From NCBI GenBank assembly GCA_000004985.1, contig GG738862.1: a stretch of DNA of 64,000 bases; one strand, written 5' to 3'. The notes beneath the pieces are model-generated. The model saw nothing but the letters and a program-made list of their open reading frames with translations, made no database searches and was not told the origin of the DNA. The position numbers and the translations under genes are program-made. Below, in pieces: positions 19,652 through 45,492 of this stretch (positions are counted from its first letter, which is position 1; each line of letters starts with the position of its first letter). Origin of the DNA: Naegleria gruberi (taxonomy: Eukaryota).

Positions 19652-21125
19652 TTGCGAGATACCAACCAACAACACCCAACCAACCTACACAACCGAATTT
19701 CCTCATCATCCAAAACAATATATTCACTAACAAAGAAAATGGTCGAAAAGAAAGCTGCTAGTCGTAAGAATTCAAACGGAAGCTCCCTCTTCACTGCTGA
19801 AGATGATCAAAAACTTATCGAAGGCTACAGAAAGTATGGTAACAACTGGAAGGACATTTCCAAAGAGTATTTTAATGGTAAATTCAAGACTAACCAATTG
19901 TTCCAACGTTATAAGAGAGTCCTTGTTGCTAAGGACAAGGAAAGTACCTGGTCAAAGAATGAAGACATTGAACTCCTTTCAGTCTATCATCACTTTGAAG
20001 GATCATGGGTTCAAATGAGCAAGAAGTATTATATTGGTATGTATTCAATTAATGTTTCAATTATTTAATGACATTTGATTAGACACAAGAACTGATAACC
20101 AACTTTCAAATAGATGGGCTAGTTTAAAGAAGAGTTGTTGTTTGATTGATACTTTTGCCAAGTTGAAACCTACTGTCAAGAAGGATCTCTACAATTTATA
20201 TAAGAAAGTTAGAAAGGCTGATGGTCCTGATGCTATTAAGAATACAAATTATACCGATATTGTCGAAATTCCAGACGATTCATTCCCAAAGATTTACCTT
20301 GGTGAAGGTAGAAAGGTTCAAAAAGAAGGATCAAAGAAGAGAAAGTCAACCAAGAAATCAACTGAAACAATTGAATCACCAAAGAAGAGAAAGTCAAATA
20401 CTAAGGATGCTTTCATAGTTGAAGAAGAAGAGGAAGAAGATAACTCATCTGTTTCTTCATCTGAAGAAGATAATACTTCTGAAGAAGCTCCACTTCGTGT
20501 TATTCCAACAAGAAGATCTCAACGTGTAAATTATTCCAAGATGCTCAGTGATGAAGAAGAAGAAGAAAAGCAATCATCACCTGAAGATGAAAAGCCTCAT
20601 CTCTCTGCAGATCAAATCCAATGGCTCAAGGCTCAAAAGTGTCCTGCCAAGAGACAATCATCATCAAGCACTGCTCCATTTACTTTTGATCTTGCTTGTG
20701 ATGAACATCTTGAAAACACTGTTACTCAACAACCACAACCAGTCCAACAACCACAACAAACTGTATCTGTACAACCATTGGCCATGCCAACCAAGCAAAT
20801 CCAATACACAGTTGTTGAAAATCATGATTTTAACTTGGACTTTAACGAAGATGAATTCCTTGAAATTGAAAGATTTATTGGTGCTCCATATAGCCACTAC
20901 GAACAAGAAAGAACCATCTCTATTGAAGATATTGTTAATCAAACAAGAAGCATTAAGGAATTTTTCGAGCAAACAAAACCAACTCCAAAGGTTGAAGAAG
21001 AACAAAATCTATTCGACTTTAATATGACAGATTTTGGTGAAGATGGTCTTGACTTGTTTGATTTCTCCAATCCTTCAAGAGCTCCAAAGTCTCCATTGTT
21101 ATTTGAAGATGGTTTGGACTTTTAA
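19652..21125 (+). CDS. Myb/SANT-domain transcription factor with acidic C-terminal region; join(19652..20036,20083..21125), intron 20037..20082 (GTATGT…AG, 46 nt). Alternative start at 19739
   Basis: Two Myb-like repeats (LFTAEDDQKLIEGYRKYGNNWKDISKEY… and WSKNEDIELLSVYHHFEGSWVQMSKKYYI|DTRTDNQLSNRWASLKK). The splice restores the conserved GRT..Q…RW…L pattern across the junction. The C-terminus is acidic with FDF motifs. Confidence 0.7.
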
Positions 21126-21324
21126 ATCTTGATCATCAATTTTGCCTTCCGAATCTCTCCCACACAAATCTAACGATTGTACTACCCTAAGCTTTTTTAC
21201 TGTACCAGAAATATGTACATAACATCAAATCATTACTAATTTATAAACACAAATCTCTTAAATTCTTGATGCTCATCTTCTTCAAATCCTCCTTCTTGTT
21301 GAATTATTTCCAAAATTTGTCTTT

Positions 21325-22139
21325 TTAGTCCCATTTCAAGAGACCTGCCACAGAGTCTGATCTCTGAGCTGATTGAGGTCTTCCTCTAGGTTTTAATTCA
21401 ATTGTATTTGAATTTAAAACTCTCCAATAATTTGTTGTTGGTAGTAAATCTTTCGATGCTTCTGGCTGTGATTTGTTCATTTGAATTAATTATACATAAT
21501 AAAAATAAGGCTCATTGGTATATTTCATGATCAACTTACCTTGACATTGGCAAATGATCCGCCCTCAAAGGAAGATCTAAGGGCCATTGGACTTGCTCTT
21601 CTTCCTCTCTTATCGGAATGATCGTTCGATGTCTTATCTTCATACGACAATAGACTCTTCACGCTTACTGACTCATGTAGAGATCCACTTAAACCAGCTG
21701 CTGGAGTCGACCCATCTTCTCCTAATGATGATCTATTTGGTCTCTCTCGTGTTGGTGTAATAACCTTTCTTCTATTGTATAAATGATCCTCTGGTGGATT
21801 GATAACTACATTCCTCGATTCATAACTCGCAGATGTTGGCCTCTTTCTCATATACCTTGGAGGAGGAGGTTTACTCTCATCATTTGCCTTAGGACCATCC
21901 CATTTACCTCTCCTTGTTGGTGTCTCACTCCTCGTTGGCACAGGTTGTGTAAAGGTCTTTTTCCTTGGTATCTCCAACTCTTGAGAAGAGTTCAAAATGG
22001 TTTTCCTTCCTGCTGAATAGTTTGCCATTGGAATACTCGATGTATTACTTGTACTCGAATAATTGATACCAGCCCTACCAAACATACTAGTGGCTGGTGA
22101 TGGACTTCTCGTTGGTCGACCTGAGGCAAGTGGACACAT
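21325..22139 (-). CDS. Hypothetical S/T/P/R-rich protein; join(21540..22139,21325..21464) on minus strand, intron 21465..21539 (GTAAGT…CAG)
   Basis: The 202-codon ORF ends …FANVK immediately followed by GTAAGT. An acceptor 75 nt downstream continues in frame for 46 codons to TAA. Confidence 0.5.
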
Positions 22140-22900
22140 TTTTTGTTGTTTTCTTAGAAAATTGTGTTCTCAAATACGTAACGGTTTAAAACGAAGTTAC
22201 CTTTGTATTGTTGTTGTTATTGGTGATGATGTAAGTTAACTTTGAAGGTGGAGATGAAGTAAGTTTGATCAAACTTTTCCTTATTGAACCTCAATTGTAG
22301 AGTTAGTTTGAAAATAAGATACTAGTTCTAAGGATGATTGAATATTGTAGATTTTCACTCTGATACTACAACAACTTCAATAGCGCGGACTCATTTGCTC
22401 CTTTTTTTTCAAAGATGTATTCCTGTAGATCATTCATTGTGTATTACTGATCGAGATGATACACAAGTGTCTTGGTTCTACAACGATCTTGTATGATGGG
22501 CTGATGATGTTTTGAGAAGCAATTTGTGATGCAAAATGAGAAGATTTCAACTCGAGCATGTTGTAGAGTGGTGTGTGAACTACAAAAATTGTAGAATGTC
22601 AGATGGGTTTCGAATTGAGGTGATGGCACACTATGGGAATACAAACAGAACGGATGGGGCTACTCGACAGGGGATTTCTTCTTAATGAGGAAAGTTGAAT
22701 ACTTGATTAGTTTGGTTTCGATTAGTTGAATTATAATTAAGGGTAAAATTTTCAGCACGTTTTGTATTGAATTATAAAGTAATGGATAATTGCAATTCAA
22801 TACATCTCGAATCAATTTCTGCCTCAATAATCAAAAATTTATTTTAATTATTAAAAGAAAATTAAAGTTTCAAGACACTTGCAAGTTGTATGGAAATGCA

Positions 22901-22914
22901 TTTTGGCGCCAAAA
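22901..22914. promoter_or_regulatory. Palindromic E2F-like site TTTTGGCGCCAAAA about 120 bp upstream of the centrin gene
   Basis: Exact palindrome matching the E2F consensus TTTSGCGC on both strands. A second partial GCGCC half-site lies 10 bp downstream. Confidence 0.3.
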
Positions 22915-23035
22915 TGTAAAATTGCGCCACACCTTAAAATAAAATACAAACCTTAAAAAAAATATTCAACCCACCACACTTGGGCCAAATTATTGTATTA
23001 TAGAAAAACTAGATTGAAGTTGTTGATAAGAAAAG

Positions 23036-23593
23036 ATGAGTTCATTTCGAGGAAAGACTGATTATTTGAGCAGAAAGCCATCTCCTTCATCCATATCGTC
23101 GAGTAAATTATCGGGGAAGAAGATGAAATTAAGTGATGAACAAAAACAAGAAATTAAAGAGGCTTTTGATTTATTTGATACAGATAAGGATGGACAACTT
23201 GATGCTCATGAATTTAAAGTTGCTATGAGAGCTTTGGGATTTGATGTTAAAAAGGAGGAAGTTCTCCGATTAATTAGGGAAAATCTTGATGAACGACCTC
23301 TCGATGATTCTTATCCAATGCTGATAAGTGCCGATTCATTCATGCAAGTAATGACAGATAAGATTTTAGAAAGAGATCCACTGGAGGAAATTAGAAAAGC
23401 ATTTAAATTGTTTGATGAGGATGGAACTGGAAAAATCAGTGTTAAAAACCTGAAAAAGATTGCAAGAGAAATTGGAGAAAGTATGAGTGAAGAGGAATTA
23501 CAAGCCATGATTGATGAATTTGATTTGGACAGAGATGGTGAAATTAATGAGAATGAATTTATTGCCATCATGAGTAACAATGAAGATTATTAA
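23036..23593 (+). CDS. Centrin / caltractin (EF-hand protein, 185 aa) with degenerate second EF-hand
   Basis: EF-hand loops [26 protein letters not shown] and [13 protein letters not shown], with centrin-type N-terminal extension and a C-terminal …EDY tail. Confidence 0.85.
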
Positions 23594-23695
23594 AATTAAT
23601 TATTTCTAAATAATATGTAATTGATTATTATTTTCTTTATTAATTTTAAATCATCTTATAATAATTTAATAAATAATTTAAACAAGATCAAAAAA

Positions 23696-24471
23696 ATGCC
23701 ATCACAAACTCTTTCCCATTTTGTGGGTGATTTAAAGGAATTTTTATTTAATGCAAAGAATTTAAATGCTCCAGAAAATCTGCCGGAACCATCATCCTCG
23801 GAGGAACCAACATCAACATACTTTTTTGAATTGGGAAGGATGTACAATTCGAAAATTGAATTTTGGTTGGCCAAAATGAGAAAGTTTTCCTATGCTTTTG
23901 CGTTATTGACAGTATTACATTTTTGTAAATTATTATTTCATGATTCTATAGATTCGGAAATGAGTCAGTGGAGCGATTTGATGGCAGTGGAAACAGCTCA
24001 AACATTTGTCTTGTCAAATTATCCACTTGTTGGATCGATATTGAATTTAGTATTTGTCAAATTATTAATCTTGATCATGACATTCACTTTGTGTTATCAA
24101 TATTACAACAAGACTAATACTGAAAATATGAAACGACTCAATTTTATCTATTATGCAACAAGTGTTGACATTTTCTTCTTCATGTTACATGTTGTTTTCT
24201 TCTTGTGGAGAGAATATTACACTAACAATGATGGATTATTCATGTTTTCTGATCCACTGTTTAATAGTGTGACATATGTTGGATGGATCATTGTTTCCCT
24301 TTTCTATGTAAGTTGTTTTTCAAATTTGTATGAAATATTTACAATTCATTTTCAATAATAATTTAGATTTGTTACTCTCATGCATCAAAGGAATTATCTT
24401 TGAATATTTTAATTAAAACTGAATTAATACCTTCAATTGAGGAAGATCAATACAATAAGGATGTTTTATAA
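23696..24471 (+). CDS. Hypothetical multi-pass membrane protein; join(23696..24307,24367..24471), intron 24308..24366 (GTAAGT…TAG, 59 nt)
   Basis: Start MPSQTLSHF. Several hydrophobic helices. The ORF ends …SLFY followed by GTAAGT, and an acceptor restores the frame to TAA. Confidence 0.5.
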
Positions 24472-24999
24472 AATCATTACTATTTAAATAATGGTAAGAA
24501 GAATTAGAATAAACCTCATCATTTTAGTTTAATAAGGATTTAATATTCGAATCTTTTACCAAGAGAACATCAAGCTGGAACAAATCTTGTTAGGGCTCCT
24601 AATTGGATGTTATTGTTTTATTTTAATATGATGATGTTTGTTTCAATCACTCATCAGTACAGTAGTAGCAACAATTGTATACCAACAATAATTATCATTG
24701 TAATATTTAAACGTTAAACATTAATGAATAATGACACAATCAACCAATAAGAGGTCAAAAGATGCAAACATCATCACTGATTAATAACAATTAATACACC
24801 TTCAGTATTGTCAATGAGACCATGATTAGACCTTCAAGGCCATTTTCCACGGAACCATCAACTGTCTGTTGTGAAACTCATCAACTTTAAAAAAAAGTAC
24901 ATCAAGAGACAACTCACCCATTACTCTCTTGAAACTTTTCAACAAGAACAAACTACCGAAAAGAAGAGCTTTTTTCGTCTTTAATTATAATTCGAAACA

Positions 25000-27900
25000 A
25001 TGGGTAAAGACGATATTGTTTTCTTACCATCCAAAGAAGTGGTAATTAGTACAATTAAAAAGTTTCAAACAGATTCTTCACTTGAATGGATATTCTTTGC
25101 CTATCAAGAATCTGATCCATCCACAAAACTTGCCAAAGGAAACAGCAATACTATTGAATTGGCTCGTACAGGAAGTGAACCACTCGATAGAAATCAATTG
25201 CAAACTCTTCGTGATGTGACAAAGGATTCTGAAGAAAGTATCAAGGCCTACCTCTCTCCACACAGTGCCAACTACTTTATTGCTCGTATTGATGCAAATC
25301 GTTACATTTTCATTAATTGGATTGGTACAAAAACCAAGACATTACAAAAAACCAGAGTAATGACTCACAGACTTGAATTGAAATCAATGGCTGAGAAATT
25401 ATTGTCCATGTCCTTTGTTTTCGATCATAATGGAATTGATGAGTTTGACAAATTGGTTAATATTGTTGATTCTTCTCGTTCTTTTGAATTTGAAAATATG
25501 AAAGATCAAAAACAAACATCCTCTCCACGTACCACTACTACCACAACTGCTACTACTGGTGGCTCTTCTCAAGTTGCCTCTGCCTCTGCTTCTTTAAAGT
25601 CTGCTTCTTCTTCATCATCATCATCATCTAGTAATACTACTAGTGCTAGTTCTTCTTCAAGTGGTAACAATTCTGCCACTAAGGGATCCTTAATGAACAG
25701 ATACAATCCTCAAACTTTAACAGAACAAGAACAAATCAATGCTAGACGTCATCAACGTTCTGGATCCAAACCACCAAAACTTGGACTTGCTGCAATTATG
25801 CGTCAAGTGTTGAAATTGGACGAAACAAACATTACTCCACTCTTGAAACAACGTTCATTTGGTTGGTTATTGTTGGGTTATAATGCTGATGGTTTGTGTC
25901 AAGTTGAAGGTCAAGGAAATGATCAATGTACATTCCCAGATCCACTCTTTGATGCTTTGAAAGAAGATGATATGCAATATATTGTTCTTCGTTGGGTTTT
26001 ATCTGACACTGGTTATGGTGGTGATGTTGAAAAGACCTATTTCTTGTCATATGTTGGTTCTGCTGTTAATTCTGTTCGTCGTGGTAAGGTAAATCAACAC
26101 AAACAAGAAGTTTATGATTATGTTAATAAGCATTTCCAATTGGGAGGTGAAGTTACAATTACTGCTCTTGAAGAATTGAATGTTGATTACATTAAGAATG
26201 TCATGTTGGGTAATAGAAGTGCTAATACTGTTACTTTGACAGATTGGGGTACTGTTCCAGTTAAGGCATCCCCAGTTGTTGGACAAACTAGTCAACCAAA
26301 GGCAACTGCTTCTCCAATCAATTCTCCAAGAAACATCAAGAAGGAAACAGCTACTGCTTCTGTTGCTACATCATCAGTTACAACAGATGCTCCAGAAAAA
26401 CCAATCGAAAGAAAGGGAAGTGAATTGTTGAGTAAGATTAAATTGGGATTCAAGGAAGGAAAATTGAAGGGTATCAAGGGAACTACTCCTGAACCTGCTG
26501 AAGATCTTACTTCACCTAAGAATTTGAAATCTCCTGGAAGAGAACCACTTAAATCACCAGGTAGAGATGGTCTTACTTCTCCTGGAAGAAAAAAGTCAAC
26601 CAAGGGTGGTATTCTCAGTTTCTCAGCTAACAATATGGACAAATTCTCTGCTAGTTTGAAAAAGAAGGATATTGTAAAGGTTCCTAATTTGGGAACTGGT
26701 CAAAACGCCATCAAGATTGAAGACGAAACTAAGGTTATTGACAAGTTGTACGATCTCAAAGATCCACTCGATAGAAATAACCAATGGGTTTTATTCAGTT
26801 ATCCAAATGACAAGACTCTCAATATTTTATCGCTTGTTGATAGTGGTTCTGAACCAATTTCTAAATCTGTTGCTGTCACCTCTCAATTGACTGATAATGG
26901 TGTCAAGTACTTTATTCACAAGTTCTACGTTGAAAGAAATGGAAGAATTGAAGCTAAATTCAGAGTTATTATCTGGAGAGGTAAATCTATTAGAGCTTAC
27001 TTCAAGGCCATTTGTACTAACCATGCCATGAAGTTGGTCACTACTATTGCTCCTGTCATTACTCAAGTTGAAGGTGATCCAATTATTTTGACTGATGTTG
27101 CTGAAGTTCCAAATGTTGTCTTATCATTGGAAGGTTTTGGTACTCCACTCGATCATGATTCTGCCATTAAGAAATTGGAAGAAAAATTGGCTGCTGCTGA
27201 ACAACGTGAAAAGCAAAAGGAAACTTCATCACCATCCAATAAGATCCAACACGAAAAGAGAGTGTCAATGAAGAAGGCTGATTACAATGCAGGTATTGAA
27301 GCTGGTTTGAAGATTTTGAACGAAGAAGAATTGATTCAAAGAATGAAGGAATTGCAAAGTGATGAAAGTGCCGTTTCCTGGGTCACCATTAGTTATAAGG
27401 ATTCCAAGACTTTGCAACTTGATGGATATGGTTCTGGAACTGCTGAATCATTCAAATCCAAGTTTACTGATGATAAGGTTTACTACACATTGTACAAACA
27501 ATTCTTGGAAGAATTGGGTGGTGCTCCAAAGACTATTCTCATTGCTTGGGTTGGTCAAGATGTCAAGCCAATGGCCAAGGCCTCTACTACTCCTCATCGT
27601 ATTGCTCTCTTCAAGTATTGCTTACGTCACGTCACTTTATCTAGTGAATATCAACCAATCACTATCAATGATTTGGATAATGATTCAATCTTTGGTAAGG
27701 TTTCTGGTGGAAGCAAGAGTGGATCAAGTGGTGTTGTTTCTAAATCATTTGGTGGTAAGAGTCAATCCCTTACACTCGCTGATGAGAATATCATTCTCGA
27801 ACAAGTTAAGGATTTGAATTCTGATGCCACTGCCACAAACTGGGTCAAGCTAGGATATAATGAATCTGGACATTTGAAATATGAAGAAAAGGGACAAGGT

Positions 27901-29859
27901 GGTTTGGCTGAATTTGAACGTCGTCTCTCTGATGATTCTGTAAATTATGTACTTTACAAGACCTATGTTGAACACAGTCCAAAGATTACTTTGATTACAT
28001 GGGTCGGTTCTGGTGTCACTGCTGGTACTGCCAAGGCAAGAGCTACCACACATCAACTTGAATTGGAAGCTTTCGTTAAGAAGGTCTTCACTGTTGCTGC
28101 TTTATATCAAGCTTTAGAAAGAGAAGAATTGAAGGAAGAATTAATCTACAAGAAGGTTGCTGGTTCCAACATTATTATCGCTCCAACTGCTGTCTCAAAG
28201 GGTACATTTGGTGGTAGAGATTCTAGTTTGAAATTCGATAATGATCAAGCTGTTCTTGATGCTTTCAAGGAATTGAGAGGAAATTCTGGAATCAGATGGT
28301 TGCTTTTCGAATATGTTCCTGGAAATCAATACACTGTTCGTGTTTCTCAAATCGGTAAGGGAGGTGTCAGAAACTTCAAACAATACCTCACTGATAACGT
28401 TGTTTGCTATGTTGTCATGCGTTTGACATTTATGGAATATTCAGATGTTGCCAAGGCTATTGTCATTACATGGGTTGGTGAAAATGCTCAAAGTTTCCAA
28501 AAAGCCCTCTCAGGTGGTCATAGAATCAACTTGTACGATTTCACTAGAAAGCAAATCTCAGTTGGTGGTGAATATCAACCTGAAAGTCTTGAAAGCTTGT
28601 CTGATGAAGATTTGCTTTCCAAGATTACTGGTACTAAGAGTGATAATGCTGGTGATGCTTTAGAAGAAAAGATTCAACAACAACGTGCCTTTGAAAGAGA
28701 ACGTATTGTGCAAGTTCAACCAACTATTGAAGTTAAGGATTCCAAGCAATATATTGGTGAATTTAAGGATATTGATTTTAATGGAAAGGAAGAAATCAAG
28801 AAGGCCTTGTTAGAACTTTCTGAAAAGTGTAGAAAGGAACAACATGATAGAGCTCTTGAAGATGCCACCATTCACTACATTAAGATGAAGTTGACTGGTA
28901 AGGAATTACGTGATGTAGTCATTGAATCTACTGGAGATGGTGCATTGAGTGAAGAATGGAGAGCTACTCATCTCGATTCAAAGGAATTCCTTCTCTTCAT
29001 CTTTGGTTTGTTCACATCTGAAGGTGGTTATGGTATGATGACCAAGTATGTCTTTGTTCAATGGACAGGACATGATACCAAGCACTTGTTGAAGGCCAAG
29101 GCCAGTGAAATCAGACAATCCATCTACAATTTCTGTAATAAGGAGTTGAACATGTCTGGCGAAATTCAAGGTTGCACTAAACCAGAACACATTACCAAGA
29201 AGTTGGTTTTGGAAAAGATTACCGGTTCAAACGTTCGTGGTAGTGAAATGAGATTGGAAAAGAAGGACAAGAAATTCGAAGGCTTGGGTAAGGAAAAGAA
29301 GAGTAAACTTGTCATCAAAGACCAAGAAACATTGAATCACTACGTTGAAGATATGATTCTCCAAGATTACCTCGAAAAAGATGAGGATAAGAAGGACGAT
29401 GATGATCCAGAAGAATGGAGAAATCACAAGAGAATTACTAAAGGTAAACTTGATTGGATCTTGTTGAGCTATTCCAAGGATTCCATTGATGAAATCAACG
29501 TTACTGCTCATGGTGAAGGTGACGTTCAAGCTTTTAAACAACACTTGAAACCAGATAGTGTCAACTTTGTAATTATCAGAGTTTTCCACGCTCAAGGTTA
29601 TGCAAAGGATATTTCCATGTTGACCGATAATAGAATCAACCTTGCCAAGCCATACTTTACTCTCATCTATTGGAAGGGAGAAAATGTTCAAGTTTTAGAA
29701 AAGGCTCTCACTTCTCATCACTTTAATGCATTCCACAAGTTGATGACTCAAAAATTCATGAGAATGAAATCATCACTCCAAGGTTCAACTTATCAAGCTG
29801 AAACTTATGAAGAATTGGACATGGAACGTATTAAGAAATTGATGAGATTGTATGATTAA
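25000..29859 (+). CDS. Giant actin-binding-type protein composed of about 8 tandem ADF-H (coactosin/drebrin-like) domains, 1619 aa, single exon
   Basis: Repeated about 130-aa modules, each with a W(V/L)LxxY start, GxGG(L/V)xE(F/L) centre and a (I/L)xW(V/T)GxxV…(K/H) tail, as in coactosin (e.g. WVKLGYNESGHLKYEEKGQGGLAEFERRL…ITLITWVGSGVTAGTAKARATTHQ). Ser/Thr-rich linkers separate the modules. Confidence 0.85.
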   Translation: MGKDDIVFLPSKEVVISTIKKFQTDSSLEWIFFAYQESDPSTKLAKGNSNTIELARTGSEPLDRNQLQTLRDVTKDSEESIKAYLSPHSANYFIARIDANRYIFINWIGTKTKTLQKTRVMTHRLELKSMAEKLLSMSFVFDHNGIDEFDKLVNIVDSSRSFEFENMKDQKQTSSPRTTTTTTATTGGSSQVASASASLKSASSSSSSSSSNTTSASSSSSGNNSATKGSLMNRYNPQTLTEQEQINARRHQRSGSKPPKLGLAAIMRQVLKLDETNITPLLKQRSFGWLLLGYNADGLCQVEGQGNDQCTFPDPLFDALKEDDMQYIVLRWVLSDTGYGGDVEKTYFLSYVGSAVNSVRRGKVNQHKQEVYDYVNKHFQLGGEVTITALEELNVDYIKNVMLGNRSANTVTLTDWGTVPVKASPVVGQTSQPKATASPINSPRNIKKETATASVATSSVTTDAPEKPIERKGSELLSKIKLGFKEGKLKGIKGTTPEPAEDLTSPKNLKSPGREPLKSPGRDGLTSPGRKKSTKGGILSFSANNMDKFSASLKKKDIVKVPNLGTGQNAIKIEDETKVIDKLYDLKDPLDRNNQWVLFSYPNDKTLNILSLVDSGSEPISKSVAVTSQLTDNGVKYFIHKFYVERNGRIEAKFRVIIWRGKSIRAYFKAICTNHAMKLVTTIAPVITQVEGDPIILTDVAEVPNVVLSLEGFGTPLDHDSAIKKLEEKLAAAEQREKQKETSSPSNKIQHEKRVSMKKADYNAGIEAGLKILNEEELIQRMKELQSDESAVSWVTISYKDSKTLQLDGYGSGTAESFKSKFTDDKVYYTLYKQFLEELGGAPKTILIAWVGQDVKPMAKASTTPHRIALFKYCLRHVTLSSEYQPITINDLDNDSIFGKVSGGSKSGSSGVVSKSFGGKSQSLTLADENIILEQVKDLNSDATATNWVKLGYNESGHLKYEEKGQGGLAEFERRLSDDSVNYVLYKTYVEHSPKITLITWVGSGVTAGTAKARATTHQLELEAFVKKVFTVAALYQALEREELKEELIYKKVAGSNIIIAPTAVSKGTFGGRDSSLKFDNDQAVLDAFKELRGNSGIRWLLFEYVPGNQYTVRVSQIGKGGVRNFKQYLTDNVVCYVVMRLTFMEYSDVAKAIVITWVGENAQSFQKALSGGHRINLYDFTRKQISVGGEYQPESLESLSDEDLLSKITGTKSDNAGDALEEKIQQQRAFERERIVQVQPTIEVKDSKQYIGEFKDIDFNGKEEIKKALLELSEKCRKEQHDRALEDATIHYIKMKLTGKELRDVVIESTGDGALSEEWRATHLDSKEFLLFIFGLFTSEGGYGMMTKYVFVQWTGHDTKHLLKAKASEIRQSIYNFCNKELNMSGEIQGCTKPEHITKKLVLEKITGSNVRGSEMRLEKKDKKFEGLGKEKKSKLVIKDQETLNHYVEDMILQDYLEKDEDKKDDDDPEEWRNHKRITKGKLDWILLSYSKDSIDEINVTAHGEGDVQAFKQHLKPDSVNFVIIRVFHAQGYAKDISMLTDNRINLAKPYFTLIYWKGENVQVLEKALTSHHFNAFHKLMTQKFMRMKSSLQGSTYQAETYEELDMERIKKLMRLYD

Positions 29860-30631: not shown

Positions 30632-32566
30632 ATGAATGACTTTTTGGAGTCGTCTGCTCCTTCTTCGTGTATTACACCAAGACAAAACCATCATTCATCA
30701 ACAGCAAATAATTTCTTCTTGTCCATAAAACAAGTTTCGAATAGTAATGGACACGCCGAGACGAAACATTTGGATGATGAAAATAACAGTAGCATGTATA
30801 GAACCCCTCCACGAAAGCACAAAACTTTCGATTCTTCATCGAGTAATCTTGCAAGTACAGCAAGTATGACCACAGTTTCGGATATGAGTTTAACTCCACA
30901 ACATGCTTGTACATCCATGATTGAATCTGATATGGTTTCGTATGATTCTTTCATATCTAGGACTTCACAATTCTCTTCATCTACCTTCACTTTACTTCAA
31001 GGTGAAAATTCTGATAAGAATTTAATGAACAATAATATTGAACGAAAGTCGTCGATTCTGGACGAATTACTGCAGGACGAAAGTGATTTTATTATTATGG
31101 TAGAATCACCACCTTCCTCTCCAATGAAGAAAGATACTCCTATCAAAGAAAGTCAAAATATTGAGTATTCAATTACCACTTCCTCCATTTCTGTAAATAA
31201 TAGCAACAATAATTCACCTAAACTTGTAAATAATAATCCAGAAATTTCTGGTTATTTATCACCACCAATGCTCAACAAGAAACAATTTTCCAGGAGTTTC
31301 AATGATATTTCTTCTCAAACATGTGAAAGAAATTTATTCGAAAATTCCCCAACAATGGACGAATCCCAGTCAACCACGAGACATATTCGAAGAGAAACCC
31401 TTACTCCAGTCACTGCTGCTTTCCTCAAACAAGCCAGAACTCAAAGAAATTCACTAGCAAGAAAGGGAAATTTCGTTCATCGACTTTCTATGAGAAAATT
31501 TAAAGATTTTTCAGATTTTCAAATTTTCAACTCACAAAATTCTGAGAATTTGGAAAAATCAAAGAAATTGGCACATCAGGAGATTTTTGAAAGAATGAAG
31601 ACAAATCAAGGCAAGTCAATTTGTGAGCTTTCTCAGGAATTTTCAATAGTTTTGATATTTGTTAAGAGTTTCCTTTGTCCTTACTCGTCGCTTTCTATTG
31701 GAAACATGAATAGACAATTGACTAAAATGTTGAGTATGAATGTCATGCCAGTATTTGTCATATTTGGTGAAGAGAGTACTTGTGAAAATGGAGGATTATC
31801 TTTTGAAGGACTGAATGATGGTTCAGAAAATAGACGAAACTCTGTCATTCTTTCAGGGTTAAAGAAGAGTTGGAGAAGTTTCCGTAAGAAACCCAAAGAA
31901 TCATCCAATTCTTCAAGTAGTCTCGATACAATCTTTGGCACCAACTTTACTCAATCAAATTATGACAAATTTTCACAGTACAAACAATTAGTCCAAAGTT
32001 TCAACAGAGTATACGATTCAACAGGTGAATTCTTCCAATATTTCAATGTAAATAAGCTTCCAGTTCAGTCAACCATCAATTTAAGCTCTCTATTCTCAGC
32101 CATCAACATAACAATGCAAGGTTTCAAAGTGGGAATCACCACAGATCATGTTTCCCAATTCAAAAGACTACCAGCACTTTTCCTAATCCACAACAATGCA
32201 GTGATGGAATATAAATTTGTGGACATGCAGGAAAAGCCAGAATATATTGAATTTATGATTGATGCGAATAGTGAGGAATGCGTGGATTCAGAGATGGAAT
32301 CATCAATTTCTGGAATTGAATATGATCTCAATACTCCAGATCAAGATTTTGATAAGGAGAATAAGGAAATTATTACTACCATTCATCCAGAGCAGTTTGT
32401 CTATACGAATAATGTCCAGCAACCATCAAATCAATATAGAGAGCTTTCGGATAATTTCTCAAAACAAAAAGAGGGTCAAAAGAAGGGTATTCGTAGAACT
32501 TTATCATGTTTCTTTGGACAAAACAATTCACCAACTTGTTCGCCAAGAAAGAGAAGTATCAGGTAG
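30632..32566 (+). CDS. Hypothetical Ser-rich protein (644 aa) with a structured C-terminal domain
   Basis: Continuous ORF. The N-terminal half is low-complexity and the C-terminal roughly 300 aa is non-repetitive. Confidence 0.6.
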   Translation: MNDFLESSAPSSCITPRQNHHSSTANNFFLSIKQVSNSNGHAETKHLDDENNSSMYRTPPRKHKTFDSSSSNLASTASMTTVSDMSLTPQHACTSMIESDMVSYDSFISRTSQFSSSTFTLLQGENSDKNLMNNNIERKSSILDELLQDESDFIIMVESPPSSPMKKDTPIKESQNIEYSITTSSISVNNSNNNSPKLVNNNPEISGYLSPPMLNKKQFSRSFNDISSQTCERNLFENSPTMDESQSTTRHIRRETLTPVTAAFLKQARTQRNSLARKGNFVHRLSMRKFKDFSDFQIFNSQNSENLEKSKKLAHQEIFERMKTNQGKSICELSQEFSIVLIFVKSFLCPYSSLSIGNMNRQLTKMLSMNVMPVFVIFGEESTCENGGLSFEGLNDGSENRRNSVILSGLKKSWRSFRKKPKESSNSSSSLDTIFGTNFTQSNYDKFSQYKQLVQSFNRVYDSTGEFFQYFNVNKLPVQSTINLSSLFSAINITMQGFKVGITTDHVSQFKRLPALFLIHNNAVMEYKFVDMQEKPEYIEFMIDANSEECVDSEMESSISGIEYDLNTPDQDFDKENKEIITTIHPEQFVYTNNVQQPSNQYRELSDNFSKQKEGQKKGIRRTLSCFFGQNNSPTCSPRKRSIR

Positions 32567-41134: not shown

Positions 41135-42553
41135 TTGACAAGAAAAAATAAGCAAACAAAGCAGATCTGCAAGATTTTGAAAATTAATTTCGGCGGAACT
41201 ATTCATCAAAAAAACATGGAGAAAAAACTCGAGTCTCTCCAACGAGAAGAAATATTTTCAGATGATATTTGTTTTGAAATAATTTCCATGATTGATGATT
41301 CGTGGTTTATTTTGAATAATTGTTCCTTGATTTCAAAACAATTCTTTAATGTGATCAAGGAACGTTCAAAACTTTTTATTGAATTTAAAAAAAAATTTAC
41401 AGAAAAAAGAATTGAACTATTCACAAAGAGTCAATTTATGAATAGTATTGTTAAAGTTAAATTTTCAACAAATTTGTTTGTCTCTATTGAAAATCACAAA
41501 TTCATAAGTGAAATGAAACAATTAACTTCACTTAATATTTCTAACAATCAAATTAATGATGAAACAGCCAAATCAATAATTGAAATGAAACGATTAACAT
41601 CACTTGATATTGGTGGAAATCAAATTGGTGATGAAGGAATCAAATTAATTAGTGAAATGAAACAATTAACATTACTTGATATTAGTGGAAATAGTATTGG
41701 TGATAAAGGAGTCAAACCAATTAGTAAAATGAAACAATTAACATCACTTAATATTTATAACAACGAAATTGGTGTAGCAGGATCCAAATTTATAATTGAA
41801 ATGAAACAATTAACATCACTTGATATAAGCTACAATGAAATTGGTGATGAAGGAGCCAAATCAATAAGTGAATTGAAACAATTAACATCACTTACTGTTA
41901 GTGGAAATCAAATTGGTGATGAAGGAATCAAATTAATTAGTGAAATGAAACAATTAACATTACTTGATATTAGTGGAAATAGTATTGGTGATAAAGGAGT
42001 CAAACCAATTAGTAAAATGAAACAATTAACATCACTTAATATTTATAACAACGAAATTGGTGTAGCAGGATCCAAATTTATAATTGAAATGAAACAATTA
42101 ACATCACTTGATATAAGCTACAATGAAATTGGTGATGAAGGAGCCAAATCAATAAGTGAAATGAAACAATTAACATCACTTACTATTAGTGGAAATCAAA
42201 TTGGTGATGAAGGAATCAAATTAATTAGTGAAATGAAACAATTAACATTACTTGATATTAGTGGAAAATCAGTTGGTGATAAAGGAGTCAAATCAATTAG
42301 TAAAATGAAACAATTAACATCACTTACTATTTATACCAATGAAATTGGTGTAGCAGGAGCCAAATTTATAAGTGAAATGAAACAATTAACATCACTTGAT
42401 ATAAGCTACAATGAAATTGGTGATGAAGGAGCAAAATCAATAAGTGAATTGAAACAATTAACATTACTTGATATTAGTGGAAATGGAATTGGTGATGAAG
42501 GATCCAAATTTATAATTGGAATGAAACAATTAAAATCACTTGATATTCAGTAG
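41135..42553 (+). CDS. F-box-like / RNI-type LRR protein (paralog B, 472 aa; alternative start 41216)
   Basis: N-terminal EIFSDDICFEIISMI motif, then about 16 repeats of a 24-aa LRR (MKQLTSLDISGNQIGDEGAKSISE). Confidence 0.7.
   Translation: MTRKNKQTKQICKILKINFGGTIHQKNMEKKLESLQREEIFSDDICFEIISMIDDSWFILNNCSLISKQFFNVIKERSKLFIEFKKKFTEKRIELFTKSQFMNSIVKVKFSTNLFVSIENHKFISEMKQLTSLNISNNQINDETAKSIIEMKRLTSLDIGGNQIGDEGIKLISEMKQLTLLDISGNSIGDKGVKPISKMKQLTSLNIYNNEIGVAGSKFIIEMKQLTSLDISYNEIGDEGAKSISELKQLTSLTVSGNQIGDEGIKLISEMKQLTLLDISGNSIGDKGVKPISKMKQLTSLNIYNNEIGVAGSKFIIEMKQLTSLDISYNEIGDEGAKSISEMKQLTSLTISGNQIGDEGIKLISEMKQLTLLDISGKSVGDKGVKSISKMKQLTSLTIYTNEIGVAGAKFISEMKQLTSLDISYNEIGDEGAKSISELKQLTLLDISGNGIGDEGSKFIIGMKQLKSLDIQ
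41627..42490 (+). repeat. Higher-order tandem repeat inside the LRR gene: three 288-bp units (4 LRRs each) at 41627..41914, 41915..42202 and 42203..42490. The first two are about 98% identical
   Basis: GGTGATGAAGGAATCAAATTAATTAGTG… recurs at exactly 288-bp spacing, with only a few substitutions between units 1 and 2. The 72-bp sub-period corresponds to one LRR. Confidence 0.8.
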
Positions 42554-42876
42554 TATTATACAGTCAATCCTTTGTTAAGCACTAACATATGGTTCCTTTA
42601 AATTACGATTAGTTAACCTAATATAAATGTAGCAAGTATTTTAACAGTCCAACCTGCATTACAATGGACAGTGTTATTGTAAAAGGAGTGGGATTGAAAC
42701 AAGCAAGGAATTTCATAGATTGGGAGTAACTGGCTGTCAGGAATCAACAGGCAACAGAATTAATCGAAAAGGAAAATGGAATGATAGATTAATGACTTAA
42801 AAATCGATTTGACACTCTATCATCAATCGAGCTATTGTTCCATCTTCCTGGTTGTTACTAACTTCCACCATAAAAA

Positions 42877-44148
42877 TTGCAATCAACTTGCTGCATTGAG
42901 TTCCACTTAAAAAAAATAGGCAGAACAATGTTCCCATTTCACAAACGGAAAACCCAACTGTTGGACGAAACTTCATTGGAAACAGTGGATATTTTGTCTC
43001 TTGTTTTTCAATTTCTCGAGCTGAAAGAATTATTCGCTCTCCAAAAAGTATCACCCTTCTTCTACCGAACCATTGAACATTTGAAATCCTTACTGATCCG
43101 ACCAATATATGAAGTTGGTTTAGTTTCGTCCGATAAGAAACAATTATCGGAATTTCTTCAACTTACTTTAAAATCAGAATTAATTAGTTCAGCCACAAAG
43201 GAAAACCCACAAAAAGTTTCAAGTACTAGATACACTTATTATTCTACAACCGAAATCGACATGACAGATAAAAATGATGGCAATCAGCTCAAAAGTGTGA
43301 AATTTGGAGAGCATCATATGATTCATGCTTTTAACAAGGTTGAAAAGGAGTTTGTCTTTAAGAATGATAGATTTAGAGTATTCTTTTATCCATTGTATTG
43401 TGAAAAGAGTACGAGTTTATCACATGATGATTATCAACGACTGGATGGGTTCATATTTTTGAATCCAAACAGCAAAGATGGATATTCAACAATGCCGAAT
43501 GGATGTAGTTTTTGTGCAACACTCTTGGATTATAATAATTCTTCAGTTGCCAATGAAACAGTACTAATGCCAGTAAGAAATTTCGGATCTTTTAAAGTTG
43601 AGAAAGTGAGTGAAAGATATTCGATAGAACAATCAATTCTCGACTGTATTAATTACATTTCAGAGAACTCAAATCGATCAATTCAATTGAACTCAATAGG
43701 AGATGGCTTAAAATCATGTTTATTAGAAAAAATTTCATTAATCATTAAGGAACCCAATGATGAAATGGTTGCCACTAAAATATCAGATCTATTCAAGAAC
43801 AAATACACACTCAAAGAGCTGATACTCTCAGAGAAAGTGAGATACATGACCAGAAAATTGAATTTCTTCAATTATCCACACAATGTCCAATTCAGTCTTT
43901 TGAAAAGACTTTACACAGCTCATTTGGGAAATGAAAATGTTAAATTCAAAGATGATCTCTATGCCATTCAGGTTATTTTCAATCAGCAATTCAATTCTAG
44001 AAAAAGGGATTCATACGATGACCATTTGGTGGAAATGAAAACTACGCTCTCATTCAATTTAGTATCTCAGGAAATTAAGTTCGAATACAAGAATATTACA
44101 AGAGCAAGTACTATTGGCATTAGTAATAAAAAGTGCATCATTTGTTAG
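42877..44148 (+). CDS. Hypothetical F-box-like protein (423 aa; probable start 42928)
   Basis: N-terminal motif VDILSLVFQFLELKELFALQKVSPFFYRTI resembles an F-box. The remainder has no recognisable family. Confidence 0.55.
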   Translation: MQSTCCIEFHLKKIGRTMFPFHKRKTQLLDETSLETVDILSLVFQFLELKELFALQKVSPFFYRTIEHLKSLLIRPIYEVGLVSSDKKQLSEFLQLTLKSELISSATKENPQKVSSTRYTYYSTTEIDMTDKNDGNQLKSVKFGEHHMIHAFNKVEKEFVFKNDRFRVFFYPLYCEKSTSLSHDDYQRLDGFIFLNPNSKDGYSTMPNGCSFCATLLDYNNSSVANETVLMPVRNFGSFKVEKVSERYSIEQSILDCINYISENSNRSIQLNSIGDGLKSCLLEKISLIIKEPNDEMVATKISDLFKNKYTLKELILSEKVRYMTRKLNFFNYPHNVQFSLLKRLYTAHLGNENVKFKDDLYAIQVIFNQQFNSRKRDSYDDHLVEMKTTLSFNLVSQEIKFEYKNITRASTIGISNKKCIIC

Positions 44149-44363
44149 TCAATTCCAATTAAGAAAATTCTTCTTAGATCGGAGCAAAATATAAATTTTA
44201 ATTTTAATTAATATTTTAAAAAATGTTGTATTAACAACTTCATCCATCTACCAAATCATCATCACGAATAACAAAATAAATCATCAAAAACAGATATTCT
44301 TTACCTTCATGAAAAACACTAAACCATCATCAATCCTTCTAGTATGGGATTAGCATTTAAAAA

Positions 44364-45446: not shown

Positions 45447-45492
45447 CTTTAGTTTTCCATTTCCTAAAGGTCAGAACTCTTCAAAATAAAAA

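What the first reader, a model, noticed from the sequence alone, without database searches (positions are those of the whole stretch)
25000..29859. Single-exon 1619-aa protein built from about eight tandem ADF-H/coactosin modules
Known ADF-H proteins have one domain (ADF/cofilin, coactosin, drebrin/Abp1) or two (twinfilin). A polypeptide of roughly eight complete coactosin-like modules joined by Ser/Thr-rich linkers is highly unusual. It could act as a multivalent F-actin bundler or scaffold. The modules are diverged from one another, so this is an old array rather than a recent duplication or assembly artefact.
Basis: partly seen in the sequence, partly recalled or inferred. Interest (0 to 1): 0.6.

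Follow-up and report, generated by a model that had tools for sequence, protein, structure and literature searches.

The report
Eight-domain ADF-H actin-binding protein, Naegleria
This is a real, intron-free gene of a Naegleria-type amoeba that encodes eight old, diverged copies of the ADF-H actin-binding fold on one chain; the fold is textbook, but this many copies has only been seen in unstudied amoeboid protists and has not been described in the papers searched.

Summary
Window 25000..29859 (+) is one uninterrupted 1619-aa ORF. Pfam Cofilin_ADF (PF00241) matches it eight times (whole-protein E 3e-86), and each module alone passes Pfam's own cut-off.

AlphaFold models fold all eight modules as ADF-H domains, arranged as beads on a string. 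The best single-domain structural matches are coactosin-like protein and drebrin (TM 0.80-0.85).

The modules are only 12-34% identical to each other, and there are no DNA repeats, so the array is ancient. Collinear single-ORF orthologues exist in four independent assemblies, including Naegleria lovaniensis and Willaertia magna, and in Acrasis kona, so it is not a mis-assembly.

An exhaustive profile search shows the protein belongs to a wider uncharacterised family. That family shares a position-specific C-terminal core, M6-M7-M8, found in Heterolobosea and Paulinella. One environmental relative carries a coronin fusion. Amoebozoa have separate arrays of 4-6 generic coactosin-like domains. 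Eight is the highest count seen.

The lysine critical for F-actin binding in coactosin-like protein (K75) is kept in all modules (Arg in M1).

The most likely function is a multivalent F-actin side-binder that stabilises or cross-links filaments. This is inferred, not tested.

I rate it a new variant of a known kind, of moderate interest.

The parts
25000..29859 (+). Complete single-exon ORF, 1619 aa plus stop codon: the poly-ADF-H protein
   Evidence: ORF listing. Pfam PF00241 at E 3e-86 with 8 stretches. Both termini are shared with the orthologues.
25006..25476 (+). Module M1 (aa 3-159): ADF-H domain with insertions of about 30 aa; Arg101 sits at the position of coactosin-like protein Lys75
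   Evidence: Pfam 29.8 bits. AF2 folded domain at aa 7-159, pLDDT about 70-87. No significant single-sequence PDB match. R101 located.
25477..25782 (+). Linker L1 (aa 160-261): disordered and Ser/Thr-rich, ending in the conserved basic motif RHQRSGSKPPKL (aa 250-261)
   Evidence: STNQGP fraction 0.64 and the conserved stretch. pLDDT below 50 for aa 163-259.
25783..26205 (+). Module M2 (aa 262-402): ADF-H domain, Lys345 at the K75 position
   Evidence: Pfam 42.5 bits. AF2 domain at aa 263-402. Position-specific orthologue in Acrasis kona (M2 HMM 85 bits against 44 for the next module).
26206..26694 (+). Linker L2 (aa 403-565): disordered, net charge +15. It contains the conserved motif KGSELLSKIKLGFKEGKLKGIK (aa 472-493, nt 26413-26478) and three L-x-SPGR repeats (aa 505-530, nt 26512-26589).
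   Evidence: Linker statistics and conserved stretches. pLDDT below 50 over aa 406-557. Orthologue sequences.
26695..27114 (+). Module M3 (aa 566-705): ADF-H domain, Lys653 at the K75 position
   Evidence: Pfam 28.1 bits. AF2 domain at aa 572-705. M3-specific match in Acrasis and in P0010.
27115..27294 (+). Linker L3 (aa 706-765), with a predicted charged helix at aa 719-740 (weak Stathmin-like match)
   Evidence: AF2 helix 719-740. Pfam Stathmin at E 0.005, below its cut-off.
27295..27705 (+). Module M4 (aa 766-902): ADF-H domain of the drebrin/Abp1/coactosin type, Lys844
   Evidence: Pfam 52.5 bits. phmmer matches to drebrin 5y1z (E 3e-7) and drebrin-like 1x67 (E 3e-6). AF2 domain at aa 770-902.
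27706..27756 (+). Linker L4 (aa 903-919): 17 aa, Gly/Ser-rich
   Evidence: pLDDT below 50 for aa 904-922.
27757..28164 (+). Module M5 (aa 920-1055): ADF-H domain, Lys995
   Evidence: Pfam 55.1 bits. phmmer match to Entamoeba coactosin 4liz. AF2 domain at aa 929-1055.
28165..28215 (+). Linker L5 (aa 1056-1072): 17 aa, conserved (APTAVSKGTFGG)
28216..28632 (+). Module M6 (aa 1073-1211): ADF-H domain and first member of the family-defining core, Lys1152
   Evidence: Pfam 56.6 bits. phmmer matches to coactosin-like proteins. AF2 pLDDT about 85-90. M6-specific matches in Acrasis, Paulinella and environmental relatives.
28633..28755 (+). Linker L6 (aa 1212-1252), with the conserved motif FERERIVQVQPTIEVKDSKQYI
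   Evidence: Mean identity 0.80 among four species.
28756..29223 (+). Module M7 (aa 1253-1408): divergent ADF-H domain specific to this family, Lys1349
   Evidence: Pfam 23.8 bits against a cut-off of 22.4. AF2 folded domain with ADF-H secondary-structure order. M7 HMM specific across the family (for example 117 against 23 bits). No significant PDB sequence match.
29224..29307 (+). Linker L7 (aa 1409-1436): GSNVRGSEMRLEKKDKKFEGLGKEKKSK. It is basic and the most conserved segment of the protein.
   Evidence: Mean identity 0.92. The consensus TGSNVRGxxMxLEKKxxKFxGLGKxxKSxL holds across 15 family members.
29308..29847 (+). Module M8 (aa 1437-1616): ADF-H domain with two insertions, Lys1550. It includes an acidic, Trp-containing loop at aa 1460-1481 (nt 29377-29442). 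The family-typical C-terminus …MRLYD follows.
   Evidence: Pfam 52.7 bits. phmmer match to drebrin-like 1x67 at E 0.002. AF2 domain with a loop of pLDDT below 50. M8-specific matches across the family.

Best explanation
The gene encodes a poly-ADF-H protein: eight ancient, diverged ADF-H domains of the non-severing drebrin/Abp1/coactosin type, strung on flexible linkers. I propose it is a multivalent side-binder of actin filaments. Each module would dock on the filament side with low affinity, as single coactosin and Abp1 domains do. Eight on one chain would give high avidity. The tightly spaced C-terminal block M4-M8 (17-41 aa linkers) would lie along one filament. The N-terminal modules M1-M3, on 65-163 aa disordered tethers, could reach neighbouring filaments. 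The expected result is filament stabilisation, including competition with cofilin for the same site, and/or cross-linking in the actin-rich cortex and pseudopods of the amoeba. Clustered S/T-P-x-K/R sites in linker L2 suggest control by phosphorylation. Shown here: the domain count, fold, class affinity, beads-on-a-string layout, conservation of the key lysine, and deep conservation of module order. Inferred: actin binding itself, avidity, decoration versus cross-linking, and regulation.
For: All eight modules pass Pfam's ADF-H cut-off. AF2 folds all eight with the ADF-H order of secondary-structure elements at pLDDT 70-90. pTM is low (0.30-0.38) and the linkers have pLDDT below 50, which indicates independent beads. 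The best single-domain Foldseek matches are coactosin-like protein (TM 0.80-0.85, rmsd 2.0-3.1 Å) and the drebrin ADF-H domain (TM 0.80-0.85). A profile of the modules ranks drebrin-like 1x67 (E 1e-16), drebrin, Entamoeba coactosin and coactosin-like protein above cofilins, with no twinfilin or GMF match at E≤1. The conserved Lys before the 'xxIxW.G' strand aligns with Lys75 of coactosin-like protein. It is present in M2-M8, with Arg in M1. It is ≥90% conserved in M6, M7 and M8 across 15 family members. K75 is critical for F-actin binding, and the R73E/K75E mutant does not bind (PMC3890291). Coactosin and Abp1 bind F-actin with low affinity, do not bind G-actin and do not disassemble filaments (PMC2447895), so tandem copies make sense as an avidity device. 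COTL1 antagonises cofilin (PMC3890291). Domains are more conserved than linkers among four species (0.67-0.84 against about 0.5), and module order is kept from Naegleria to Acrasis. An environmental relative fuses the same core to a coronin propeller (DUF1899 + WD40_4), and coronin is an F-actin-binding protein (the coronin reading of those two Pfam families is my own knowledge).
Against: No binding experiment exists for any member of this family. M1, M2, M3 and M7 are so diverged that they have no significant sequence match to any solved ADF-H domain, so some modules may no longer bind actin. ADF-H domains can have non-actin partners: the drebrin ADF-H domain was crystallised with ZMYND8 (5y1z), and GMF binds Arp2/3 (my own knowledge). 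The very strong conservation of the M7-L7-M8 unit suggests a more specific job than generic side-binding. The AF2 models say nothing about how the protein is arranged on a filament.
Confidence: 0.55

Rival explanations
1. The conserved M7-linker-M8 pair acts like twinfilin. It would bind actin monomers and/or cap barbed ends, while the upstream modules anchor the protein to the filament side.
For: M7, the basic linker L7 and M8 form the most conserved unit of the protein (identity 0.80, 0.92 and 0.84). They are the family signature. Paulinella P0019 repeats just this pair four times. The top Foldseek match for both models is twinfilin on a barbed end, 7ccc_B (E 2.6e-14 and 5.5e-15).
Against: The twinfilin match reflects the two-domain layout, with rmsd 21-24 Å and TM 0.32-0.35. 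No twinfilin sequence matches the module profile at E≤1. M8's own best sequence matches are drebrin-like and drebrin.
Confidence: 0.12
2. It is an Arp2/3-linked scaffold, like Abp1 or GMF. ADF-H modules hold it on filaments or on Arp2/3, and the acidic Trp-containing loop in M8 contacts the Arp2/3 complex.
For: The modules are closest to drebrin-like/Abp1 ADF-H domains. M8 carries a disordered acidic insertion, KDEDKKDDDDPEEW, conserved as [DE]n-EW in Naegleria and Willaertia. From my own knowledge, yeast Abp1 activates Arp2/3 through acidic DDW motifs combined with its ADF-H domain. A relative is fused to coronin, which is an Arp2/3 regulator.
Against: The Trp is missing from the same insertion in Acrasis, Paulinella and environmental relatives. 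No SH3 or other Abp1 feature is present. No GMF sequence match was found. The motif resemblance is by eye only.
Confidence: 0.12
3. Most modules have lost actin binding, and the protein is a scaffold for other partners built from a re-used fold.
For: M1, M2, M3 and M7 have no significant match to solved ADF-H sequences. Conserved linker motifs (aa 250-261, 472-493, 1231-1252, 1409-1436) point to partners beyond actin.
Against: The K75-equivalent basic residue and the W.G…K[AG]….H helix motif are kept in nearly all modules and across the family. There is a coronin fusion. Every relative found carries only actin-related domains.
Confidence: 0.1
4. The ORF is an assembly or annotation artefact that joins separate ADF-H genes.
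For: None found. Repeat-rich genes are a known source of assembly error, so this was checked.
Against: Modules are 12-34% identical and share no long DNA repeats. The same eight modules occur in the same order in single ORFs on independent contigs from Logan (SRR29240419) and ENA (ERZ27315067), and in Willaertia magna and Acrasis kona.
Confidence: 0.01

Closest known systems
Coactosin / coactosin-like protein (COTL1, Dictyostelium coactosin, Entamoeba EhCoactosin)
   Same: Same fold (TM 0.80-0.85, rmsd 2.0-3.1 Å). Significant profile matches (E 1e-12 to 5e-10). The Lys75-equivalent residue is kept.
   Different: Coactosins are single-domain proteins of about 140-150 aa. This protein has eight domains in 1619 aa, with conserved linkers. 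Arg73 of coactosin-like protein is not kept; the modules carry the 'LPK/APK'-type context seen in drebrin and Abp1.
Abp1 / drebrin / drebrin-like (HIP-55) ADF-H domains
   Same: These are the best sequence matches: 1x67 at E 1.4e-16 and 5y1z at E 5.6e-13. They share the W.GE.V…K….H motif and have TM up to 0.85.
   Different: Those proteins have one N-terminal ADF-H domain followed by helical or Pro-rich regions and, in Abp1, an SH3 domain. None of these is present here.
Twinfilin
   Same: It is the only described class with more than one ADF-H domain (PMC2447895). It is also the top multi-domain fold match (7ccc_B).
   Different: Twinfilin has two domains, not eight. There is no sequence-level match to twinfilin domains, and the class of ADF-H domain is different.
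Gelsolin / villin superfamily
   Same: This is an analogy of design: three or six copies of a small actin-binding α/β domain on one chain. Multi-domain Foldseek matches reach E about 1e-9 to 1e-13.
   Different: It is a different sequence family, with no Pfam gelsolin match. The global superposition is poor (rmsd above 20 Å). No Ca2+-binding features were examined.
Uncharacterised database relatives
   Same: Members: Naegleria lovaniensis C9374_008867; Willaertia magna ABK040_011917; Acrasis kona KAL0485428.1 and 'CoaA' KAL0487820.1; Paulinella micropora P011441, P007603 and P006631. They show collinear modules or the shared M6-M7-M8 core, with the same C-terminus …RL[YF]D.
   Different: The window's protein is 57-71% identical to the closest ones, and its exact sequence is not on record. 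Paulinella and several environmental relatives have fewer or rearranged N-terminal modules. None has been studied.
Amoebozoan poly-coactosin arrays (Vermamoeba vermiformis ×6, Dermamoeba algensis ×4, Vermistella antarctica ×4)
   Same: They carry multiple coactosin-like ADF-H domains on one chain in amoeboid protists.
   Different: Their domains are near-equidistant from M4, M5 and M6, and they have no M7 or M8. They lack the shared core, so they are probably independent arrays.

Membership tests
ADF-H domain superfamily (Pfam PF00241 Cofilin_ADF) | A match to the family HMM above the curated gathering score, for each claimed domain | tested here: met
   The eight segments score 23.8-56.6 bits against a cut-off of 22.4. 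The whole protein scores E 3e-86 with 8 stretches.
ADF-H domain superfamily (Pfam PF00241 Cofilin_ADF) | ADF-H fold: a central β-sheet flanked by helices, including the long α3 helix | tested here: met
   AF2 models give each module the order β-α1-β-β-α2-β-β-α3(long)-β-α4 at pLDDT 70-90. Foldseek TM is 0.80-0.85 to coactosin-like protein and drebrin. These are predictions, and the Foldseek rows do not say which module was matched.
ADF-H domain superfamily (Pfam PF00241 Cofilin_ADF) | Binding to actin (or to Arp2/3 in the case of GMF) | not testable with these tools
   This needs co-sedimentation or imaging. The only indirect evidence is the conserved K75-equivalent residue.
Coactosin class | A single ADF-H domain makes up the whole protein of about 15-17 kDa | tested here: not met
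   Eight domains in 1619 aa.
Coactosin class | The basic residue equivalent to coactosin-like protein Lys75, needed for F-actin binding (PMC3890291) | tested here: met
   The profile alignment places the conserved Lys opposite K75 of 1t2l. It is Lys in M2-M8 and Arg in M1.
Coactosin class | Domains closer in sequence to coactosins than to any other ADF-H class | tested here: inconclusive
   Drebrin-like and drebrin score slightly better than coactosins. M1, M2, M3 and M7 have no significant single-sequence match. No class phylogeny was built.
Abp1/drebrin class | One N-terminal ADF-H domain plus a C-terminal SH3 domain (Abp1) or drebrin-specific helical/actin-binding regions | tested here: not met
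   Pfam finds no family other than PF00241 above its cut-off.
Twinfilin class | Exactly two twinfilin-type ADF-H domains plus a C-terminal tail | tested here: not met
   There are eight domains. No twinfilin chain matches the module profile at E≤1. The twinfilin fold match is at layout level only (rmsd above 20 Å).
Gelsolin/villin superfamily | Gelsolin-repeat sequence signature (a Pfam Gelsolin match) | tested here: not met
   No such Pfam match even at E≤10. The resemblance is at fold level only.
Poly-ADF-H family defined here (M6-M7-M8 core) | Position-specific M6, M7 and M8 modules in that order, the conserved linker TGSNVRG…LEKK…GLGK, and the C-terminus …RL[YF]D | tested here: met
   Module-specific HMMs separate best from next-best by wide margins in Acrasis, Paulinella and environmental relatives. 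The consensus of 15 members is. The family is my own delineation, not a curated one.

The most novel reading that the evidence does not exclude
The protein represents a sixth, undescribed class of ADF-H proteins. This 'poly-ADF-H' class would be defined by a conserved M6-M7-M8 core that predates the split of Heterolobosea and Rhizaria, or moved between them. The core has been extended to eight modules, re-duplicated as (M7-M8)×4 in Paulinella, or fused to coronin. Arrays that are probably independent arose in Amoebozoa. On this reading, multivalent ADF-H arrays are a recurrent solution for building or stabilising the actin cortex of crawling amoeboid cells, with the M7-L7-M8 unit carrying a new actin-regulatory activity.
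Probability: 0.3. Interest if true: 0.7.

Novelty: new variant of a known kind. Interest (0 to 1): 0.5.

Why it matters
ADF-H proteins are central regulators of actin turnover and are taught as five classes with one or two domains. A conserved family with up to eight domains would add an untested design principle: avidity from many weak F-actin binders. The family occurs in amoeboid protists from at least two supergroups, including close relatives of the pathogen Naegleria fowleri. It offers a candidate for how Naegleria, whose crawling form relies on actin, stabilises or cross-links its very dynamic cortex. It also gives a clean set of diverged natural ADF-H variants for asking which surface features decide between side-binding, severing and capping. 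If it turns out to be a plain F-actin binder, it is still a useful new member for evolutionary surveys of the actin toolkit.

Tried and rejected
1. Two of the three homologous-protein searches returned nothing: the core alignment A3 and the core sequence aa 1066-1619. Members of the query are in the database, so the 8000-candidate word filter was evidently swamped. No conclusion is drawn from those empty results. Names and taxa came from cluster look-ups instead.

2. Foldseek against afdb50, which would have given organism names for structural relatives, was not available.

3. The exact protein is not on record, so the species could not be named. A 156-aa fragment that is 85% identical to M1 shows that a closer relative exists.

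4. Single-module phmmer against PDB gave no significant match for M1, M2, M3 or M7, so per-module class assignment failed for these four.

5. A WH2 reading of the linker motif at aa 472-493 was considered and dropped. There is no Pfam WH2 match at E≤10 and no predicted helix.

6. The weak Stathmin match at aa 715-788 (E 0.005, below its cut-off) is treated as a charged helix only.

7. Recent duplication or assembly collapse was rejected.

8. Literature searches found no description of proteins with more than two ADF-H domains. The searches were Naegleria + ADF-H, coactosin, or cofilin/twinfilin; tandem, multiple, three or four ADF-H domains; the Acrasis genome; and two Naegleria actin papers. 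The library lacks most subscription-journal papers, so this is absence in what was searched, not proof.

9. Conserved synteny was not found. An EF-1α-like gene lies upstream in two orthologous loci but not in the window.
Full report
**Observation**

Window 25000..29859 (+) is a single ORF of 1619 aa that starts at the first ATG after an in-frame stop. The surrounding sequence is AT-rich, at 32-38% G+C. The neighbouring ORFs are ordinary eukaryotic genes: F-box/LRR, a 3'-5' exonuclease, an ABC transporter, LRR proteins and an NHL/EGF receptor-like kinase.

Pfam Cofilin_ADF (PF00241) matches the protein at E 3.1e-86 with eight stretches. Nothing else passes a curated cut-off. Cut into eight segments, every segment passes the gathering score of 22.4 bits on its own: 29.8, 42.5, 28.1, 52.5, 55.1, 56.6, 23.8 and 52.7 bits. 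So the count of eight is not produced by summing weak signals. M7 is marginal by Pfam alone.

**Age of the array, and why it is not an artefact**

The modules are 12-34% identical to one another. At DNA level only 20-41 nt motif-sized matches at 62-81% identity are found. This rules out recent duplication and repeat-driven mis-assembly.

The closest proteins in a 5.8-billion-protein collection are four full-length relatives at 57-71% identity. Two come from independent assemblies: Logan SRR29240419 and ENA ERZ27315067, where they are single called genes on contigs of 24 and 17 kb. The other two are Naegleria lovaniensis C9374_008867 and Willaertia magna ABK040_011917. They share both termini with the window's ORF, so the gene is complete and has no introns.

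The window therefore comes from a Naegleria-lineage heterolobosean. The exact protein is not on record. A 156-aa fragment that is 85% identical to M1 shows that a closer relative has been sequenced.

Among four species, the domains are more conserved (mean identity 0.67-0.84) than the long linkers (about 0.5). This is the pattern expected under purifying selection on the folds.

**Class of domain**

Searched as a whole, the protein matches solved ADF-H domains of drebrin, drebrin-like protein, coactosin-like proteins and Entamoeba coactosin, through M4, M5 and M6.

A profile of 32 module sequences (eight modules from four species, alignment A2) gave this ranking against PDB sequences:
- drebrin-like 1x67, E 1.4e-16
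- drebrin 5y1z, E 5.6e-13
- Entamoeba coactosin 4liz, E 1.5e-12
- human and mouse coactosin-like proteins, about E 5e-11
- actophorin and cofilins, E 1e-8 and weaker
- twinfilin and GMF, no match at E≤1

M8 alone matches drebrin-like protein (E 0.002). M1, M2, M3 and M7 alone have no significant match to any solved chain. So 'coactosin-like' is right at the level of the coactosin/Abp1/drebrin group for M4, M5, M6 and M8, and unresolved for the other four.

**Structure**

AlphaFold2 on aa 1066-1619 (15-sequence alignment) gave mean pLDDT 76.8 and pTM 0.38. On aa 1-1075 (11 sequences) it gave mean pLDDT 64.9 and pTM 0.30.

All eight modules come out as compact domains at pLDDT about 70-90. Each has the same order of elements: β-α1-β-β-α2-β-β-long α3-β-α4. 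They are separated by segments with pLDDT below 50: aa 163-259, 406-557, 742-765, 904-922, and the L6 and L7 linkers. The low pTM means no fixed arrangement between domains is predicted. The protein is a string of beads.

Foldseek against the PDB returns three kinds of match:
- Twinfilin on a barbed end (7ccc_B), as a two-domain layout match.
- Gelsolin and villin, as multi-domain analogues with poor superposition.
- Single-domain matches: coactosin-like protein (TM 0.80-0.85, rmsd 2.0-3.1 Å) and the drebrin ADF-H domain (TM 0.80-0.85).

**Anatomy**

| Element | Residues (aa) |
|---|---|
| M1 | 3-159 |
| M2 | 262-402 |
| M3 | 566-705 |
| M4 | 766-902 |
| M5 | 920-1055 |
| M6 | 1073-1211 |
| M7 | 1253-1408 |
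| M8 | 1437-1616 |

The first three modules sit on long linkers of 103, 163 and 65 aa. The first two are disordered and rich in Ser/Thr/Asn/Gln/Gly/Pro.

M4-M8 form a compact block with linkers of 17, 17, 41 and 28 aa. L6 and L7 are as conserved as the domains, or more so. L7 (GSNVRGSEMRLEKKDKKFEGLGKEKKSK) has identity 0.92.

L2 carries a conserved basic motif at aa 472-493 and three L-x-SPGR repeats. Orthologues have S/T-P-x-K/R sites at the same place.

M8 has a disordered acidic loop with a Trp, KDEDKKDDDDPEEW. The [DE]n-EW form is conserved only in Naegleria and Willaertia.

**The actin-binding lysine**

In the profile-to-structure alignment, the conserved Lys that precedes the 'xxIxW.G' strand lies opposite Lys75 of human coactosin-like protein. 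It also lies opposite the equivalent Lys of Entamoeba coactosin, drebrin and drebrin-like protein.

Lys75 is reported as critical for F-actin binding, and an R73E/K75E mutant is used as a non-binding control (PMC3890291).

In the window's protein the position is R101, K345, K653, K844, K995, K1152, K1349 and K1550. Across 15 diverse family members, the M6, M7 and M8 positions are at least 90% conserved.

**The wider family**

An exhaustive HMM search with the module profile covered 1.84 billion cluster representatives. It found 2115 proteins at E≤1e-3. Among the best 150, at least 25 have four or more matched stretches. Eight is the maximum.

Module-specific HMMs (M1 to M8) split these hits into two groups.

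Group A shares position-specific modules with the window's protein:
- Acrasis kona KAL0485428.1 has eight modules in collinear order. Its M2, M3, M7 and M8 assignments are decisive; for example M7 scores 117 bits against 23 for the next module, and M8 scores 132 against 35.
- Several environmental proteins have six or seven modules.
- The core, consisting of a generic module followed by M6, M7 and M8, recurs in: Acrasis 'CoaA' KAL0487820.1; Paulinella micropora and P. chromatophora (Rhizaria); and unnamed Logan, ENA and IMG sequences.
- Core members keep the L7 motif; most of them, including Acrasis 'CoaA', also end in …RL[YF]D.
- Paulinella P007603 consists of (M7-M8)×4.
- One environmental relative (P0025, with P0042) carries DUF1899 plus WD40_4 N-terminal to the core. 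From my own knowledge, those are the Pfam families of the coronin propeller.

Group B consists of arrays of four to six near-generic coactosin-like domains, with no M7 or M8. They come from the Amoebozoa Vermamoeba vermiformis (six domains, also by Pfam), Dermamoeba algensis and Vermistella antarctica. Their domains are equidistant from M4, M5 and M6, so they look like independent arrays.

Generic Pfam at E≤1e-3 finds only five to seven domains in the orthologues. The family-specific profile is needed to see all eight.

**Mechanism**

Shown:
- Eight ADF-H folds of the non-severing class lie on one flexible chain.
- The key lysine is conserved.
- Module order and two inter-domain linkers are deeply conserved.
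- A relative is fused to an actin-related domain (coronin).

Established knowledge:
- Coactosin and Abp1 use the same surfaces but bind F-actin with low affinity, do not bind G-actin and do not disassemble filaments (PMC2447895).
- COTL1 competes with cofilin (PMC3890291).

Inferred: the array binds filament sides with high avidity. The compact M4-M8 block probably lies along one filament, and the long-tethered M1-M3 modules can reach other filaments. The expected result is stabilisation against cofilin and/or cross-linking, possibly switched by phosphorylation of L2. I put this at about 0.55.

Rivals:
- A twinfilin-like capping or monomer-binding role for M7-L7-M8 (0.12).
- An Abp1- or GMF-like link to Arp2/3 through the acidic Trp loop (0.12).
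- A scaffold whose divergent modules no longer bind actin (0.10).
- An artefact (0.01).

**Comparison with known families and novelty**

The protein is a member of the ADF-H superfamily. The HMM and fold criteria are met, and actin binding is untestable here.

It fails the architecture criteria of every described class. Coactosins have one domain. Abp1 and drebrin have one domain plus SH3 or helical regions. Twinfilin has two twinfilin-type domains. It has no gelsolin signature.

The literature held here describes five classes with one or two domains (PMC2447895). It contains no description of proteins with more than two ADF-H domains, and nothing on ADF-H proteins of Naegleria. Relatives sit in public databases only as 'hypothetical protein' or 'ADF-H domain-containing protein'.

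I therefore rate it a new variant of a known kind. The domain and its probable ligand are familiar. The eight-fold architecture and the conserved M6-M7-M8 core are not described. Interest is moderate (0.5). An actin specialist would be surprised by the architecture and its spread among amoeboid protists, but no function has been shown.

Noticed in passing
window 26413-26478 (aa 472-493): The linker motif KGSELLSKIKLGFKEGKLKGIK is conserved in all four close orthologues, inside an otherwise poorly conserved disordered linker. By eye its spacing recalls a WH2 motif, but there is no Pfam WH2 match and AF2 predicts no helix.
   Followed up: partly
window 26512-26589 (aa 505-530): There are three L-x-SPGR repeats. 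Orthologues carry S/T-P-x-K/R sites at the same place in the linker with different sequences, which suggests a cluster of proline-directed kinase sites.
   Followed up: no
window 29377-29442 (aa 1460-1481): M8 carries a disordered acidic insertion, KDEDKKDDDDPEEWRNHKR. The [DE]n-EW form is kept in Naegleria and Willaertia but not in Acrasis or Paulinella. It resembles the acidic Trp motifs that bind Arp2/3 (my own knowledge); this is untested.
   Followed up: partly
P0025 and P0042 (Logan/ENA environmental proteins): A coronin-type propeller (Pfam DUF1899 + WD40_4) is fused N-terminal to the same ADF-H core (generic module, then M6, M7, M8). This is a domain fusion linking the family to another actin regulator.
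   Followed up: partly
P0019 (Paulinella micropora P007603, 2177 aa): It has four near-identical repeats of about 440 aa, each made of the M7-M8 pair only. It ends in a Cys-rich, B-box-like segment. Unlike the Naegleria array, this is a recent re-duplication.
   Followed up: no
P0005, P0012, P0018 (Vermamoeba, Dermamoeba, Vermistella) and many proteins of about 500 aa with three domains: Amoebozoa have separate arrays of 4-6 generic coactosin-like domains. Dozens of unnamed cluster representatives have three such domains, and many proteins of about 300-370 aa have two. The two-domain proteins match the profile strongly, and that profile matched no twinfilin chain in the PDB.
   Followed up: partly
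P0003 (Naegleria lovaniensis C9374_008867) and P0001: The N. lovaniensis gene model is defective. Part of M5 is replaced by unrelated residues, and the model ends inside M7 (1339 aa). P0001 has a 62-aa N-terminal extension that probably comes from a wrong start codon.
   Followed up: partly
P0158-P0163 and P0010 (JGI/IMG names): IMG names some of these ADF-H arrays 'ssRNA-specific RNase YbeY' or 'phosphopantetheinyl transferase'. These names are spurious for eukaryotic ADF-H proteins found in metagenomes.
   Followed up: no
L001 480-1850 and L002 4337-5707, compared with window 20000-25000: An EF-1α-like GTPase gene lies directly upstream of the orthologue in both fetched loci. In the window, the upstream ORFs (20142-21125 and 23621-24358) have no Pfam match, so local synteny is not kept.
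   Followed up: partly
window 41135-46533 and 60861-63431: Two LRR-protein ORFs (41135-42553 and 45493-46533) lie in a same-strand run of ORFs of 330-470 aa. There is also an 856-aa ORF that combines NHL and EGF repeats with a protein kinase domain (receptor-like kinase). The 644-aa ORF just downstream of the finding (30632-32566) has no Pfam match.
   Followed up: no
tool behaviour: the search for homologous proteins returned no hit for the core region, although 85%-identical proteins are in its database and were found with the full-length query. Negative results from that tool should not be trusted for this protein.
   Followed up: no
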